64,000 nucleotides of DNA from a virus (Duplodnaviria; Caudoviricetes), in IMG/VR virus record IMGVR_UViG_3300032227_000318, positions 32,001 through 96,000 of that record, one strand, 5' to 3'. Under the pieces are notes generated by a model, which ran no database searches, had not been told where the DNA came from, and was given only the letters and a program-made list of their open reading frames with translations. Positions 544 to 56,703 of this stretch are shown here, one piece after another; within the stretch, counting starts at the first letter, position 1; each line of letters begins with the position of its first letter. Both the position numbers and the translations under genes were made by a program.

Positions 544-1126
544 TTGCATTTAACTGCTTCTTTAGTATTTCCCTGAACTTTTTTTGATCAAGGTCTTGAA
601 GCAGGAACGGTGCAAACTTCCGTGTCTTGAAGCTGAACTTAGACCACAGATAGTCGTCCTTGAGTTTAGCATCAAACTTAGGAATGAAGTCAATGAAAGA
701 ATTGAGAATGATGAGAGTTTCCAGAGAGATATCACCACGCATGTATTCATTCAAAAACTTAGGATAACCATTGTCTTCTATCTTGAATAAAGACCTGATA
801 TCATCCACTTTTTCTAGTTCATTCTTAAAATCGTAGGACATGGATTGGACTTTTCGCATATGCCTTACAGTAGAACTGAAAGCATCATCATCTAACATAT
901 CTCCAATCCATGTCCTATCAGCCATGAAACATAATGCAATGTGCATCTTCACATCATTACACTTTCTGGCCAATTTCTCAAACTGAAACCTATCTCGCCT
1001 GTTCAGAAACGACTCTTTACTAGCGGTCACTTTACCATTGTACTTGAAGAAATCATAGTTGTCTTTGGTAAAATGATTCTTCAGCGCAAGATAGGTACAG
1101 TACGTTTCGTACCCAGATAGTTTCAC
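536..1126 (-). CDS. 59: Loader of DNA helicase, T4 gp59-like
   Basis: Y..YLALKNHFT...YDFFKYNGK, RRDRFQFEKL, ISLETLIIL. Confidence 0.9.
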   Translation of the reverse strand: MKLSGYETYCTYLALKNHFTKDNYDFFKYNGKVTASKESFLNRRDRFQFEKLARKCNDVKMHIALCFMADRTWIGDMLDDDAFSSTVRHMRKVQSMSYDFKNELEKVDDIRSLFKIEDNGYPKFLNEYMRGDISLETLIILNSFIDFIPKFDAKLKDDYLWSKFSFKTRKFAPFLLQDLDQKKFREILKKQLNATI

Positions 1127-46884: not shown

Positions 46885-46889
46885 ATGAT

Positions 46890-46966
46890 TGGTTGCGGGT
46901 GTGAGTGCTGCCCTCACTATCTCCGGCTTATGAGACCGGCGGCTTATCTACCTTGCCCTACCCACT
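46890..46966 (-). tRNA. Initiator-like tRNA-Met(CAT), atypical T loop
   Basis: 1:72 mismatch, CCCGCAACCA end, T loop GGCAGCA. Confidence 0.75.
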
Positions 46967-47009
46967 TTATTTCTTATAGATTCTGAAATCTTTTTCTTTG
47001 TTAATGAAT

Positions 47010-47245: not shown

Positions 47246-47319
47246 TGGTAGTTCCTACTGGTTTCGATCCAGTGATGCGCGGTTATCGGCCGCGAGTTTT
47301 ACCATTAAACTAAGGAACC
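47246..47319 (-). tRNA. tRNA-Ile(GAT), 5' end overlapped by HNH ORF
   Basis: CGCGG-CCGATAA-CCGCG, CCA. Confidence 0.9.
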
Positions 47320-49274: not shown

Positions 49275-49348
49275 TGGCGACCTATGCGAGACTCAAACTC
49301 GCTACACCTCTTAGACAGAGAGGTGTGATATCCATTCACTAATAGGCC
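49275..49348 (-). tRNA. tRNA-Asp(GTC)
   Basis: Cloverleaf, CCA. Confidence 0.92.
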
Positions 49349-49354
49349 TTGAAT

Positions 49355-49429
49355 TGGAGAACCAGGTGAGAATTGAACTCACGACACGCGGGTTAAGAGG
49401 TCGCTACTCTACCACTGAGTTACTGGTCC
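49355..49429 (-). tRNA. tRNA-Lys(CTT)
   Basis: Cloverleaf with two anticodon-stem mismatches, CCA. Confidence 0.88.
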
Positions 49430-49435
49430 TTGAAT

Positions 49436-49511
49436 TGGCTGGATAGCTTGGATTCGAACCAAGGACATCCTCGTTAACAGCGAGGCGCTCTACCGCTGGA
49501 GCTACTATCCA
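49436..49511 (-). tRNA. tRNA-Asn(GTT)
   Basis: Cloverleaf, CCA. Confidence 0.93.
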
Positions 49512-49513
49512 AT

Positions 49514-49655
49514 ATTCTACTTTCGTCAGTAGTCACATCATCATATGAGATTCGAACTCATGCCTGCGCCGCTTCTGCGGCACCGTGCTTCCCCTACACC
49601 AATGAATGACTTGTCGCGGTGGCCACCTGCTAGTGACTACTGACGAAAGTAGAAT
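49514..49655 (-). ncRNA. Anticodon-less tRNA-like domain inside a 23-bp perfect stem
   Basis: IR 49514-49536/49633-49655; D arm, 7-bp arm with AGAA loop, T arm ATGAG-TTCGAAT-CTCAT. Confidence 0.7.
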
Positions 49656-49801
49656 GTGAGGCTGTGCTGAGTCACAGACACTCACTGGATATTTCGCTAC
49701 TCAGTGCGCCTTTGAGAAGAGCAAAGGTACTCATAGGAACTTAACAATGTCAATCAGCGACCGCGTCTATCTTGCCCGCGCGGCTGGGAAACTCTCTCTT
49801 A

Positions 49802-49889: not shown

Positions 49890-49928
49890 AAAATGAAAGA
49901 ACCCCGAAACTTTCGCTCCGGGGTTCTA
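49890..49928 (-). terminator. Intrinsic terminator (attenuator)
   Basis: AGAACCCCG/CGGGGTTCT stem then TTCATTTT. Confidence 0.85.
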
Positions 49929-50186: not shown

Positions 50187-50278
50187 TGGTCGGCGTGCTT
50201 GGATTCGAACCAAGTCAAGAACACTCATCTAGTGCTAAAGGGATTATAAGGCCCTCCCGTGTACCAACACCCACGCCG
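50187..50278 (-). tRNA. Atypical tRNA with TAT anticodon (Ile-AUA reader?)
   Basis: CGGCGTG/CACGCCG acceptor, CTTATAA loop, minimal D loop, long variable arm, CCA. Confidence 0.75.
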
Positions 50279-53201: not shown

Positions 53202-53450
53202 CTACGTACCGAACATGATACCAAACTTCTGGTTGATATTATCGTCAATTATGGTGGTCTCTATTGGCGTCAGTATGAAGCTCGGTGTCCATCCTGCAAA
53301 AGCGCCGCCTTGGTCCATAAATTTAGCCCTCTCTATTGCTTCTTCTTCAAAAACAAAAGCTTCAATCAATTGATCTGAATCATTCTCCATCACACACCAG
53401 ATAAAATCATGGTCGTCTGTTTCAAGTGGAATAACATTATACTTATTCAT
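53202..53450 (-). CDS. Conserved hypothetical protein
   Basis: GGAFAGWTPSFIL motif downstream of helicase. Confidence 0.65.
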   Translation of the reverse strand: MNKYNVIPLETDDHDFIWCVMENDSDQLIEAFVFEEEAIERAKFMDQGGAFAGWTPSFILTPIETTIIDDNINQKFGIMFGT

Positions 53451-53452
53451 CT

Positions 53453-54850
53453 TTACACCTTCAATGATTTGAACTTGTTTAGCTTTTTTACCATCTTATC
53501 ATCTGCTCCTTGTTTTTGCCCACTATCGACAATATCCACTTGAGCAGAATTCTCTACATCATACAACTTCATTTTTGATCTGTCAATACCTATCACAAAC
53601 TTTTTGTTTGTTGATGGATCATTGTATCGGTTCTTCAACTGCTTTACCATGATCTGACCCAGTTCTTCCAATGTCTCAGAAGTAATGAGTGCAAACATGA
53701 AGTCTGCTGTTGCAGGTAGACCAAATGATTCGGATGTATCCTCAAGGCCAATGTCTGTAGACACAAAGCCGCTTCTCGTTGTCTGAGTGGCCGAAACAAT
53801 CGGCACTTCAAACTCAACCGCTAGACCACGTAACTCTTCAGCGATAGACTTGATATACGTGTATGAGTTGACACCATTACCAGGCTTTATACGCGAAGAG
53901 GTGCAGATGTTCAGATAGTCAATGAAGATAATATCTGGCTTGAATGACTTCTTTAGGTTCAACTCATTGAGTAGAGCCTTGAAATGCATAGAGCCGGCAC
54001 CAGCCGTCGGATACTCTTTGACAATCAACCGACCATTCGTCTTTGACTTAAGAGCATTTGCTTTCTTCATGTACAAATCTTTTGGCAAAGCCATCAGATC
54101 ATCAAACGTAATGTTCATAAGATTGGCATCAATACGCTTAGACACTTCTTCTTCAGCCAACTCTAGAGTGATATACAAAACATTCTTACCCATGTTCAAA
54201 GAAGATGCAGCAACATGACACATGAACAAAGACTTACCAACACCAGTACCAGCAAGTGCGATATTCAGTGTCTTCTTTGGTAGGCCATTCTTTGTGATCT
54301 TATTGAAGAACTCTAGATCAAACGGAATCTTCTCTAGTACCTGATGGTAATATTCATATCGTGCTTCAAAGTCGTTCAGATAATCATGACCGACATTTGG
54401 ATCAAACGATACAGACAATGCATCAGATAGAATAGATGGGATAGAACCAGTAGTCAGTGTACCATGCTTTTTATCCATAATCTCAATTGACTTCATGATA
54501 GCATGATACAAAGCCTTTTCTTGACAGAACTTTTCAGTGCTATCAATCAACCACTGTTCATTTGGTTCACCTGTCTCTTGTGGCAAATATACATCAAGGA
54601 AGTCGATTACGCTTTTGACCTGGTCTTCTTTAATATTCTTCAGACTTTCAATTTCAATCTTTAGAGATGTTCGGTCAGGCCGAGCATTATACTTGAGAAT
54701 AAAGTTTTGAATCTCGGTGTAGAGAATTCTTTCACTCTCTACACCGAAATACTCAGGCTTCAGAAACGGCAGTACCTTACGGACATAATTTTCATTCCTC
54801 AACAAATTCGTCAGAATCGTTTTCTCTAAGCTCTGATTTTGCAATGTCAC
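53453..54850 (-). CDS. 41: Replicative helicase, T4 gp41-like
   Basis: LAGTGVGKS, DYLNIC, AEELRGLAVE, SATQTTR, SESFGLPATAD, QLKNRY. Confidence 0.97.
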   Translation of the reverse strand: MTLQNQSLEKTILTNLLRNENYVRKVLPFLKPEYFGVESERILYTEIQNFILKYNARPDRTSLKIEIESLKNIKEDQVKSVIDFLDVYLPQETGEPNEQWLIDSTEKFCQEKALYHAIMKSIEIMDKKHGTLTTGSIPSILSDALSVSFDPNVGHDYLNDFEARYEYYHQVLEKIPFDLEFFNKITKNGLPKKTLNIALAGTGVGKSLFMCHVAASSLNMGKNVLYITLELAEEEVSKRIDANLMNITFDDLMALPKDLYMKKANALKSKTNGRLIVKEYPTAGAGSMHFKALLNELNLKKSFKPDIIFIDYLNICTSSRIKPGNGVNSYTYIKSIAEELRGLAVEFEVPIVSATQTTRSGFVSTDIGLEDTSESFGLPATADFMFALITSETLEELGQIMVKQLKNRYNDPSTNKKFVIGIDRSKMKLYDVENSAQVDIVDSGQKQGADDKMVKKLNKFKSLKV

Positions 54851-55121
54851 TATCTACTACCTCCAGAATCATTTCATTAAGAATTATACCAATATGGTAT
54901 TCAAATTCTTTGCTTCTACGCAAATTGGTTTCAGTGTGCTTTCCCATTTCAATCAGATCATAACTGAAATTGAGTTTAGCGGAACCATTTTCCAATTCAC
55001 TGACACTAACATTTGTGTATCTCAGTATAACGCCTTGATACTTCTCTGTCAATAATTCTATAGGTACAGTGTCATATTTTTTAAGGTCATCACGAAACTT
55101 GTATATCTTACCAGGACTCAT
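54792..55121 (-). CDS. gp40-like head vertex assembly chaperone (positional)
   Basis: Between uvsX and 41; [20 protein letters not shown]. Confidence 0.6.
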
Positions 55122-56173
55122 TCGTTTTCCTCCACAGTTGTAACACTAGATTTGCCATAGAGGAATTCATCCTTACACTTTTCATCAATAAGGTCGAGAA
55201 TGGCCTTAGTGAAGAACTTTTCAGGATTCTTTTCTATAGCCGATTCAAACGCTTTAGTGCCGTCCGGTAATTCAAACTTGTTTGAGACCTTCTTGAAGAT
55301 ACCGAACTTCTCAGCGAGGTCAAGAAGTCCATAATAAGGATCAAGACCAGTTGCATAATCAAGTAGCGTTTCAACTTTCTTATTCTCGATTGTTAGTCGA
55401 GCCTTCTTAAGATTGGCCGTAATGATGGCACCTGTTACAGAATTATCGGACTTGTCCTTATCTTTCTTCTTAGATAAGAAAAGAATAGTTGAGGCGGCAT
55501 ACTCAAGGCCAGAGCCGCCACCCATCTTCTTGGTTGGCACATATGAACCAACAACATCGTAAACGTGATTGGTCACAATGAGCGGCACCTTAGCCTTGCC
55601 AAGCTTGAGAGTAAGAACACGGAATGCACCACGCACCAACTGAGCGCGGGTCATGTCGCGTGTGTCTTTACCATCTGCAATATCTTCCATCTCTTTAGTG
55701 GTTGATAGATTGCCAAGTGAGTCGAGAACAAACAACATCGGCGGCCGATTTTTATTTGTCTTATCTTCAATGTACTTGTCGAGGATCTTTACGGCTTGAG
55801 TTCTAAACTCTTGGATAGTTGCGACCGGCACAACAGCGACTCTCTTGGTGTCAATGTCTCTATCTGCCAGCATTTGCTTAGAGATTGCGGATTCAGATTC
55901 GAAGTAGAAGACGAATCCTGTTTCGTTGTCTCTGAGGAACTGTCTGACAATATTGATTGCGTAAAAGGTCTTGCCTGTTGAAGGTTCACCGGCGAGGGCA
56001 GTGACTTTATTAGCAGGGAGGCCGCCGTATATACTGCCAGATAACAGAGCATTGAGACTATAAGAACCAGTGCCGATGAAACCAGTAACATCACCAGCTT
56101 CAACACCATCATCAGCAATTCCTGCATATTCATTATCAATCTCCTTAAGTAGGGAGTTAAACATATTACTCAT
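55118..56173 (-). CDS. uvsX: RecA-like recombinase
   Basis: [44 protein letters not shown]. Confidence 0.95.
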
Positions 56174-56223
56174 ATTGATTCTCCAATATTATGTGAAAGT
56201 CACGATTCTCCGTGACAGAGTAT

Positions 56224-56682
56224 TTAGCAACGAACGATATCATCTTCGCTGCATATCTCACCCATCTGAACCTCAATAGCAATGAGTGTTTCAGTTAAGT
56301 GAGTATTCGCAATCTTATGAAGAGAAAGCTTTGGCACATGAAACGATTCGCCCTTCTTCACAGTGAAGATGCTACCGTCAACAATGACTTTACCTTCACC
56401 CTGCACAATTGTCCAGTGTTCTGAGCGATGCTTATGATACTGAAGTGAAATTGCTTGATCAGGTAAAATCTCAAGACGCTTGACCTTGTAACCTTGATCT
56501 ACATCAAGGACATGCCATTCACCCCACGGGCGTTTTGCTGATTCAACATATGCTCTTCTACGTTCCGCTACAATCATTTCCATTATTTCATCAAAGTCTC
56601 TGTCTTTATACTCTCTACATCCTGGATCACACTCTTTGTATAATCCACACGGACATCCACCACCATGATCATATGCTGCCAT
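56224..56682 (-). CDS. Cupin, mannose-6-phosphate isomerase type II-like
   Basis: RPWG, SLQYHKHRSEHW, IEVQMG...EDDIVR. Confidence 0.85.
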   Translation of the reverse strand: MAAYDHGGGCPCGLYKECDPGCREYKDRDFDEIMEMIVAERRRAYVESAKRPWGEWHVLDVDQGYKVKRLEILPDQAISLQYHKHRSEHWTIVQGEGKVIVDGSIFTVKKGESFHVPKLSLHKIANTHLTETLIAIEVQMGEICSEDDIVRC

Positions 56683-56703
56683 TATAAAAAAACTCCTCTA
56701 AGT

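What the first reader, a model, noticed from the sequence alone, without database searches (positions are those of the whole stretch)
49514..49655. Anticodon-less, CCA-less tRNA mimic inside a perfect 23-bp stem
Seen: first element of the array. The inverted repeat ATTCTACTTTCGTCAGTAGTCAC encloses a D arm (GTGT-AGGGGAA-GCAC), a 7-bp arm capped by AGAA in place of an anticodon loop, a canonical T arm and a short acceptor-like helix. Arm order is that of normal tRNA, not the permuted order of YrlA Y RNAs. Inference: a decoy for elbow-binding host proteins (tRNases, stringent-response or defence sensors) or a processing signal.
Basis: partly seen in the sequence, partly recalled or inferred. Interest (0 to 1): 0.75.

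Follow-up and report, generated by a model that had tools for sequence, protein, structure and literature searches.

The report
Stalk-mounted tRNA-shaped RNA in phage
An uncultured T4-like phage encodes, just before a block of its tRNA genes, a conserved RNA with a complete tRNA body on a 23-base-pair stalk, no usable anticodon and no free CCA end; it is probably cut out by host RNA-processing enzymes, but what it does afterwards is unknown.

Summary
Window 49514-49655 (minus strand) folds as a perfect 23-bp stalk that runs coaxially into an 8-bp acceptor-like helix. It has canonical D and T arms and a GC hairpin capped by AGAA where the anticodon arm should be. A 22-nt insert on the 5' strand carries an invariant 10-nt palindrome.

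Ten distinct copies from viral and metagenome contigs keep the fold: 97% of pair cells are paired, and 9 pairs change on both sides. The stalk is unique in the genome.

Close relatives carry other stalked cassettes at the same site. One is a second, unrelated tRNA-like family (A type, 14 covarying pairs). Some have A and B in tandem. One (C type) has a stalk with a non-tRNA interior.

The anticodon-position arm is replaced as a patch between near-identical copies. One allele copies the phage's own tRNA-Ile(GAU) anticodon arm.

It is not a Y RNA: the arms are not permuted, and no Ro gene is present, even in a complete relative. It shows no detectable homology to T4 rnaC, its closest analogue.

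Best reading: a processing cassette cut by host RNase III and RNase P, releasing a stable tRNA-shaped RNA. A decoy role is not excluded.

This scan has noted anticodon-less tRNA mimics in other phage DNA; the stalk and the cassette slot are particular to this case.

The parts
49633..49655 (-). 5' arm of the 23-bp stalk
   Evidence: Perfect inverted repeat. Five stalk pairs change on both sides among 10 relatives.
49611..49632 (-). 22-nt insert on the 5' strand between stalk and acceptor helix; contains the palindrome GGUGGCCACC
   Evidence: The palindrome is invariant in all 10 copies. It is unique in the genome. Self-dimer prediction is -27.9 kcal/mol.
49602..49610 (-). 5' strand of the 8-bp acceptor-like helix, with a bulged U at 49605
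   Evidence: Two pairs change on both sides; 97.5% of cells are paired.
49585..49601 (-). Positions 8-9 and the D arm (4-bp stem, loop AGGGGAA)
   Evidence: The stem is invariant; U8, A14, G18 and G19 equivalents are present. Aligned by the Rfam tRNA model.
49566..49583 (-). Variable arm in the anticodon-arm position: 7-bp GC stem capped by AGAA
   Evidence: It folds as a hairpin in every allele; at least 5 alleles with loops of 4-7 nt. 7 of 12 differences from L093 fall in this 15-nt stretch.
49545..49565 (-). 4-nt variable region and the T arm (5-bp stem, loop UUCGAAU)
   Evidence: Two T-stem pairs change on both sides. The T loop is canonical.
49537..49544 (-). 3' strand of the acceptor-like helix; no discriminator-CCA end
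   Evidence: It runs directly into the stalk's 3' arm.
49514..49536 (-). 3' arm of the stalk, ending 2 nt before tRNA-Asn
49656..49762 (-). Conserved structured leader upstream of the cassette site, including an 18-nt box shared by all relatives
   Evidence: Near-identical in L090, L091, L093, L095 and L113. The hairpin directly upstream served as an anchor that found 10 contigs.
49898..49927 (-). Terminator-like hairpin separating the upstream tRNA block from the leader and cassette
   Evidence: 13-bp stem followed by a T run. The consensus promoter lies upstream at 50096-50068.

Best explanation
The element is a real, selected, non-coding RNA gene: a complete tRNA body whose acceptor helix is extended by a 23-bp stalk, so it has no free 3' end, and whose anticodon arm is replaced by a free-to-vary capped hairpin, so it cannot decode.

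I propose it works as a processing cassette at the head of a tRNA sub-operon.
- The stalk, about two helical turns of perfect duplex, is a substrate for host RNase III.
- The tRNA body with its single-stranded 5' insert is a substrate for host RNase P at the insert/acceptor junction (about 49610/49611).
- Together the cuts detach the regulatory leader from the tRNA block and release a stable tRNA-shaped RNA of roughly 100-120 nt. That would make it a functional analogue of T4 species 1 RNA (rnaC).

Shown: the fold, its conservation and covariation, the fixed site, and the interchangeable stalked cassettes.
Inferred: both cleavages, the stability of the product, and any role of the product in trans. 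The invariant insert suggests a sequence-specific partner.
For: - Fold energy is -64 kcal/mol, z = -6.9.
- Across 10 distinct copies, 97.3% of pair cells are paired against 25-49% when partners are slid. Nine pairs change on both sides, across the stalk, acceptor extension and T stem; 0 of 500 shuffles reach this.
- RNAalifold recovers the stalk, D, variable and T arms de novo.
- G-U pairs fit only the minus-strand RNA.
- Uninterrupted stems of 16 bp or more are very rare genome-wide: 2 in 110 kb and 4 in 167 kb. Only this site combines one with a T loop next to a tRNA.
- The site is filled in all 10 contigs found with the leader anchor, always by a cassette with a 21-25-bp stalk: B, A, or C. 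Two further contigs that lack this leader carry A and B in tandem.
- The A type is independently supported by 14 covarying pairs.
- The C type has a stalk but no tRNA-like interior, so the stalk is the common denominator.
- The element ends 2 nt before tRNA-Asn and lies downstream of a terminator.
- Against the divergent L096 clade the element is 78% identical, within the 65-99% range of real tRNA genes.
- T4 rnaC lies in a T4 tRNA cluster and also has a T arm, an acceptor-like helix without CCA and no anticodon loop.
- tRNA-like structures are proposed as RNase P/Z cleavage signals in plant mitochondria (PMC1920247).
Against: - There are no expression or end-mapping data, and the phage and its host are uncultured.
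- RNase III cleavage is inferred from stalk length alone. None of the five phage records encodes RNase III, so a host enzyme of unknown specificity must be assumed.
- RNase P already matures each downstream tRNA, so an extra cassette is not obviously needed.
- The cloverleaf-on-stalk fold is 5.5 kcal/mol above the predicted minimum.
- RNAalifold pairs part of the insert with itself instead of forming the acceptor extension.
- The strict invariance of the 22-nt insert is not explained by a processing role.
- The ten sequences represent only about three lineages, so the covariation counts are not independent events.
Confidence: 0.45

Rival explanations
1. Trans-acting decoy or sponge. The released (or uncleaved) tRNA body binds a host factor that recognises tRNA shape, such as a defence nuclease or toxin that attacks the anticodon arm or elbow. 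It titrates or blocks that factor. The swappable arm is the bait, or an uncuttable replacement for it.
For: - All core tertiary positions of a tRNA are kept, and the D and T loops are conserved.
- The arm is replaced as a patch inside a block that is otherwise 97% identical, while the genomes are about 76% identical elsewhere.
- One allele matches the phages' own tRNA-Ile(GAU) anticodon arm at 13 of 17 positions, including the rare C33.
- Some defence nucleases cut the anticodon stem rather than read the anticodon: a bacterial Schlafen cuts between nucleotides 30 and 31 (PMC13056530).
- Phage tRNAs are reported to evade tRNA-targeting defences (PMC10264068, PMC11555353).
Against: - Most alleles carry tetraloops that resemble no anticodon loop.
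- The C-type cassette at the same site has no tRNA body.
- No candidate target is known, and no defence or counter-defence gene is linked.
- The arm variation can also be explained by an absence of sequence constraint.
Confidence: 0.25
2. Purely cis-acting stalk. Only the long duplex matters, as an RNase III site, a transcript insulator or a stabiliser for the tRNA block. The tRNA-like interior is a tolerated passenger, derived from an old tRNA gene, with no function of its own.
For: - The C type shows that the site works without a tRNA-like interior.
- Three unrelated interiors share the outermost stalk base pairs.
- tRNA fragments are common debris in this endonuclease-rich array (earlier notes).
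Against: - A passenger should decay. Instead the T stem and acceptor extension covary, and the D and T loops and the 22-nt insert are invariant across clades whose neighbouring tRNA-Asn genes are only 65% identical.
- A second, unrelated tRNA-like interior (A type) is also maintained by covariation.
Confidence: 0.17
3. Y RNA-type scaffold. The stalk binds a Ro60/Rsr-like protein, and the tRNA-like head recruits an exoribonuclease, as described for bacterial YrlA.
For: A long terminal stem combined with a tRNA-like module is the general plan of YrlA (own knowledge; Rfam RF02553).
Against: - The RF02553 model does not match the element; its only weak hit spans two ordinary tRNAs.
- The arm order is that of a normal tRNA, not permuted.
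- The stalk is a perfect duplex without the bulged Ro-binding helix.
- No TROVE-domain gene is present in five phage records, one of them 100% complete.
Confidence: 0.04
4. A decaying tRNA pseudogene, or a DNA-level feature (cruciform, recombination or insertion-element ends), with no RNA function.
For: - It scores only marginally with the tRNA model.
- A perfect inverted repeat could be the ends of a mobile element.
- The array is rich in homing endonucleases.
Against: - It is single-copy, with no other copy of the arms.
- Compensatory changes keep the pairing, and the G-U pairs make sense only as minus-strand RNA.
- The palindrome is not reiterated as an operator would be.
- Length changes of 1-6 nt among copies exclude a coding frame.
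Confidence: 0.05

Closest known systems
Bacteriophage T4 species 1 RNA (rnaC), a small stable RNA in the T4 tRNA cluster
   Same: Both are encoded within the tRNA gene cluster of a T4-like phage and are about 140 nt long. Both have a canonical T arm, an acceptor-like helix without CCA, and a long arm in place of a readable anticodon arm. The function of rnaC is unknown (annotation; fold and Rfam scan). That species 1 RNA is cut by RNase III in vitro is my recollection of 1970s papers, which I could not retrieve here.
   Different: No sequence or model homology: model R1 does not hit rnaC. rnaC sits at the 3' end of its cluster and has free ends and a long imperfect 5' hairpin. It has no perfect stalk enclosing the whole body, no invariant palindromic insert, and no known cassette polymorphism.
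tRNA (Rfam RF00005)
   Same: Cloverleaf in normal arm order, with U8, A14, G18-G19, the T loop and a G15-C48-type pair present. It scores 29.7 bits here and 38.1 bits in L096, against a cut-off of 29.
   Different: No 7-nt anticodon loop with U33 in most alleles. No CCA or free 3' end. The acceptor is extended by 23 bp, with a 22-nt insert at the RNase P position. ARAGORN makes no call here, and calls 'tRNA-???' with a 2-nt anticodon in L096 and L109. The chassis is no closer to any phage tRNA (63% at most) than tRNAs are to each other.
YrlA / bacterial Y RNAs (Rfam RF02553)
   Same: A terminal stem plus a tRNA-mimicking module that cannot decode.
   Different: YrlA is circularly permuted (T arm, sealed acceptor, D arm) and enters through the anticodon-stem position. 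Here the stalk extends the acceptor and the anticodon position is sealed. No model match and no Ro gene.
t-elements of plant mitochondria and tRNA punctuation; RNase III processing stalks around rRNAs
   Same: tRNA-like folds are proposed as cis signals for RNase P/Z cleavage at transcript ends (PMC1920247). A long duplex formed by flanking sequence that encloses a stable RNA and is cut by RNase III is the rRNA precedent (own knowledge).
   Different: Those elements are not known to combine the two devices in one unit, to sit in a polymorphic cassette site, or to carry a swappable arm. This is a resemblance in how it works only.

Membership tests
tRNA (RF00005), functional decoder | Cloverleaf with D, anticodon and T arms in normal order that scores above the family cut-off | tested here: met
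   29.7 bits against a cut-off of 29, with permissive filters only; 38.1 bits for the L096 copy.
tRNA (RF00005), functional decoder | 7-nt anticodon loop with U33 on a 5-bp stem | tested here: not met
   The window has a 7-bp stem with a 4-nt loop. Other alleles have loops of 4, 6 or 7 nt, and none has U33. ARAGORN makes no call.
tRNA (RF00005), functional decoder | Free 3' end with discriminator and CCA (encoded in the neighbouring tRNAs of this phage) | tested here: not met
   The 3' strand of the acceptor runs straight into the 23-nt stalk arm, with no CCA.
YrlA / Y RNA (RF02553) | Match to the family model, with the permuted tRNA-like domain | tested here: not met
   No hit on the element at E up to 10. 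The only hit (19.7 bits, cut-off 69) spans two adjacent ordinary tRNAs.
YrlA / Y RNA (RF02553) | Linked Ro60/Rsr (TROVE domain) gene | tested here: not met
   No PF05731 match in the window's genome or in four relatives, one of them 100% complete; the control genomes scored. A host-encoded Ro cannot be excluded.
T4 rnaC (species 1 RNA) | Detectable sequence or structure homology to T4 rnaC | tested here: not met
   Model R1 gives no hit on T4 70908-71046. There is no Rfam family for rnaC.
T4 rnaC (species 1 RNA) | A stable small RNA processed from the tRNA-cluster transcript | not testable with these tools
   This needs RNA end mapping, and no expression data are available for this uncultured phage.
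RNase III processing stalk | About two turns (20 bp or more) of near-perfect duplex formed by sequences flanking a stable RNA | tested here: met
   The window's stalk is 23 bp and perfect. Stalks are 21-25 bp in all A, B and C cassettes and covary.
RNase III processing stalk | Actual staggered cleavage by RNase III | not testable with these tools
   No RNase III gene in the phage records. The host enzyme and its specificity are unknown.
Miniature inverted-repeat mobile element | Multiple copies, or terminal repeats found at other sites | tested here: not met
   The arm sequence occurs only at the two arms, in both the window and the genome.

The most novel reading that the evidence does not exclude
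The site is a dedicated 'expression socket' in which T4-like phages exchange stalk-mounted tRNA bodies. The anticodon-position arm is a swappable bait or shield aimed at host nucleases that attack the tRNA anticodon arm. That would make this an RNA-based counter-defence module, diversified by short-patch replacement and sometimes copying a real tRNA's anticodon arm.
Probability: 0.2. Interest if true: 0.85.

Novelty: new variant of a known kind. Interest (0 to 1): 0.6.

Why it matters
Phage tRNA clusters have been known for fifty years to encode tRNA-like stable RNAs of unknown function, such as T4 species 1 and 2 RNA. This locus offers a cleaner handle on that old question.

Two unrelated tRNA-shaped RNAs and one non-tRNA RNA, all mounted on the same kind of stalk, alternate at a single site. 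Natural variants separate the constrained parts (stalk, elbow, palindromic insert) from the free part (the arm).

If the stalk and body are processing devices, this would show a bacterial virus combining RNase III and RNase P signals to punctuate a tRNA operon. If the arm is a bait, it would be an RNA counter-defence of a new type.

In either case the covariance model and the cassette catalogue give annotators a way to stop mislabelling such loci as pseudo-tRNAs or leaving them blank.

Tried and rejected
- **Helicase-anchored synteny:** 80 loci at 60-65% helicase identity were fetched. None has the element, and their tRNAs lie on the other side of the helicase. My first hairpin script also under-reported stem lengths because of a de-duplication bug; this was corrected.
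- **Rfam:** at gathering thresholds it finds only ordinary tRNAs and the tmRNA. Permissive scans add only the marginal tRNA hit.
- **Y RNA/Ro, phage RNase III, RtcB:** no genes found.
- **Homology of B to the A type or to T4 rnaC:** none with model R1.
- **Cultured phages:** no BLAST match for the B, A or C cassettes. The nearest cultured helicases are about 61% identical (Melnitz, S-SSM7).
- **Mobile element, coding frame, reiterated DNA operator:** all rejected.
- **Recent tRNA parent for the chassis:** none; the best identity (63%) is within background. The 4-bp match of the window's arm to tRNA-Phe is within chance.
- **'Hypervariable arm' as proof of selection:** softened after one search showed that the genomes are mosaic.
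- **Shared motif with a tmRNA gene:** seen in one relative only and left unexplained.
- **Literature:** searches for T4 species 1 RNA and RNase III found nothing retrievable. PMC10690425 was a false lead, because 'rnaC' matched 'RNAcode'.
- **Flanking proteins:** no tRNA-specific enzymes.

Full report
**What is there**

The window is part of a 110-kb IMG/VR virus record that is about 67% complete. It carries 28 tRNA genes, all on the minus strand, and a permuted tmRNA gene. The uvsX - small ORF - DnaB-like helicase gene order and the helicase's nearest cultured relatives (Methylophilales phage Melnitz and T4-like cyanophages, about 61% identical) place it among uncultured T4-like myoviruses. 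HNH and GIY-YIG homing endonuclease genes are scattered through the array.

The reported element lies at 49514-49655 on the minus strand. It ends 2 nt before tRNA-Asn. It is downstream of a terminator-like hairpin at 49927-49898 and a consensus promoter at 50096-50068. It therefore heads the second tRNA block, not the whole array.

**Checking the observation**

The 23-nt inverted repeat is perfect and unique in both the window and the genome. The RNA folds at -64 kcal/mol, z = -6.9. Rfam's tRNA model aligns the core (49538-49608) in normal arm order at 29.7 bits against a cut-off of 29, but only under permissive filters. ARAGORN does not call it.

The full anatomy, with coordinates, comes:
- a 23-bp stalk;
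- a 22-nt insert on the 5' strand;
- an 8-bp acceptor-like helix with one bulged U, which on the 3' strand is continuous with the stalk;
- U8 and G9;
- a D arm with a 7-nt loop containing the two G residues that normally contact the T loop;
- G26;
- a 7-bp GC arm capped by AGAA;
- a 4-nt variable region ending in C;
- a T arm with loop UUCGAAU.

So every nucleotide that builds the tRNA core and elbow is present, but there is no decoding loop and no free CCA end. The neighbouring tRNAs encode their own CCA.

**Relatives and covariation**

Exact-pattern scans of IMG/VR and of metagenome contigs gave ten distinct copies in about three lineages, aligned.

For the structure I wrote down, 97.3% of pair cells are standard pairs. 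With partners slid by 1-3 columns the figure is 25-49%. Nine pairs change on both sides: five in the stalk, two in the acceptor extension, two in the T stem. None of 500 shuffles reaches these values. RNAalifold recovers the stalk, D arm, variable arm and T arm de novo. It pairs part of the insert with itself instead of forming the acceptor extension. That insert hairpin has no two-sided changes and breaks in some rows, so I prefer the acceptor extension, but this part is less certain.

The G-U pairs (one invariant in the acceptor, one in the D stem, one variable in the stalk) make sense only for minus-strand RNA. Copies differ in length by 1-6 nt, which excludes a conserved reading frame.

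Against the divergent L096 clade the element is 78% identical, within the 65-99% range of the flanking bona fide tRNA genes. The insert's 10-nt palindrome is invariant in all copies and occurs only once in the genome.

**A cassette site**

An 18-nt box and a leader hairpin upstream of the element are conserved. Using them as anchors showed that close relatives carry different things at exactly this site:
- the B type, which is this element;
- an A type, in which a 21-25-bp stalk is directly continuous with a 7-bp acceptor and encloses a T arm, a long 5' arm and a short arm that is mostly tetraloop-capped;
- A and B in tandem (on two contigs that have the 18-nt box but a different leader);
- a C type, with a stalk of about 22 bp and a 40-46-nt interior that has no tRNA features.

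The A type is a family of its own. Fourteen of its 46 predicted pairs keep pairing through two-sided changes. It matches neither the B model nor the Rfam tRNA model. The A, B and C cassettes can share the same outermost stalk base pairs.

Genome-wide, uninterrupted stems of 16 bp or more are very rare: 2 in the 110-kb record and 4 in a complete 167-kb relative. In each genome only this site combines such a stem with a T loop next to a tRNA. The stalk is therefore the common denominator of the site.

**The variable arm**

The arm in the anticodon position always folds as a hairpin, but it exists in at least five alleles, with loops of 4, 6 or 7 nt.

Between the window and the L093 group, 7 of 12 differences across about 480 aligned nt fall within this 15-nt stretch. 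Taken alone, that could simply reflect an absence of sequence constraint. However, the genomes are mosaic: the same pair is 76.5% identical across the helicase and uvsX genes but 97.3% identical across the leader-cassette-tRNA block. The arm also differs as a whole patch with a length change. Short-patch replacement is the simplest description.

The L093-type arm matches the anticodon arm of the phages' own tRNA-Ile(GAU) at 13 of 17 positions, including the rare C at position 33. By contrast, the chassis is no closer to any phage tRNA (63% at most) than different tRNAs are to each other.

**What it is not**

- **Not a Y RNA.** The YrlA model does not match, the arm order is not permuted, the stalk has no bulged helix, and no TROVE gene is present in five phage records, one of them complete.
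- **Not linked to a phage RNase III or RtcB**.
- **Not a repeated mobile element**.
- **Not coding**.
- **Not a reiterated operator**.
- **Not found in any cultured phage record**.

**Closest known**

The closest known thing is T4 species 1 RNA (rnaC). It is annotated as a small stable RNA in the T4 tRNA cluster. It folds with a canonical T arm, an 8-bp acceptor-like helix without CCA, and long arms in place of the D and anticodon arms. I found no homology to it, so the likeness is one of kind, not of family membership.

tRNA-like structures proposed as RNase P/Z signals at transcript ends are documented for plant mitochondria (PMC1920247). RNase III stalks that enclose stable RNAs are the rRNA precedent (own knowledge).

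**Mechanism**

I commit to a processing cassette at confidence 0.45. Host RNase III cuts the stalk. Host RNase P recognises the tRNA body and cuts at the insert/acceptor junction. The leader is thereby detached from the tRNA block, and a stable tRNA-shaped RNA is released. The fold, conservation, site and cassettes are shown; the cleavages and product stability are inferred.

The invariant insert is unexplained by this model. It suggests a sequence-specific partner or dimerisation (predicted self-duplex of -27.9 kcal/mol).

The main rival, at 0.25, is a trans-acting decoy for nucleases that attack the tRNA anticodon arm. Such enzymes exist: a bacterial Schlafen cuts between nucleotides 30 and 31 (PMC13056530). 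Phage tRNAs are also reported to evade tRNA-targeting defences (PMC10264068, PMC11555353). The arm swapping and the tRNA-Ile-like allele fit this rival. The tetraloop alleles and the C cassette do not.

**Limits**

There are no expression data. The host is unknown. Only about three independent lineages are available. Collection-wide searches were limited to exact patterns.

Earlier AI notes from this scan describe anticodon-less tRNA mimics in many other phage genomes. I used them only as leads. The T4 rnaC comparison was made here before I saw them.

Noticed in passing
window 47246-47319 (minus); also G001 tRNA-Ile(GAU): The phage tRNA-Ile(GAU) has the anticodon loop CCGAUAA, with C instead of the near-universal U at position 33. 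This holds in both the window's genome and the complete relative.
   Followed up: partly
L090:1470-1551 (minus); L112:5522-5603 (plus): Relatives carry an 82-nt tRNA that ARAGORN labels 'tRNA-???'. It has a 6-bp anticodon stem, a loop reading UCA as anticodon (UGA-reading or Sec-like) and a long variable arm. The window has a 125-nt gap (46885-47009) at the matching position.
   Followed up: no
L118:2535-2550 (G001, complete relative): The intervening segment of that phage's permuted tmRNA gene, just after the acceptor piece's CCA end, shares 15 of 16 nt with the B element's stalk/insert junction, again at the 5' arm of a stem. The window's own tmRNA gene lacks it.
   Followed up: partly
window 833-918: The only other long uninterrupted hairpin in the genome (17-bp stem, 52-nt loop). 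It is conserved in the complete relative at G001:5923-6006 and lies about 760 nt from the tmRNA gene.
   Followed up: no
window 49745-49762 (minus): An 18-nt box is conserved in all relatives upstream of the cassette site. It resembles a -35 hexamer without a good -10, and its reverse complement reads like a ribosome-binding site plus ATG.
   Followed up: no
window 49277-49758 versus 53275-56686: Strong mosaicism between related phages: 97.3% identity over the leader-cassette-tRNA block against 76.5% over the helicase and uvsX genes in the same pair of genomes.
   Followed up: partly
window 50187-50278 (minus): ARAGORN calls a 92-nt tRNA-Ile(UAU) that the Rfam tRNA model does not report at its gathering threshold. 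Similar 92-94-nt copies are seen in L019, L090, L093, L096 and L108.
   Followed up: no
L113:2712-2836; L091:10456-10545: The A-type (tRNA-like, 24-bp stalk) and C-type (non-tRNA interior) cassettes occupy the same site in relatives. Each would merit its own description.
   Followed up: partly
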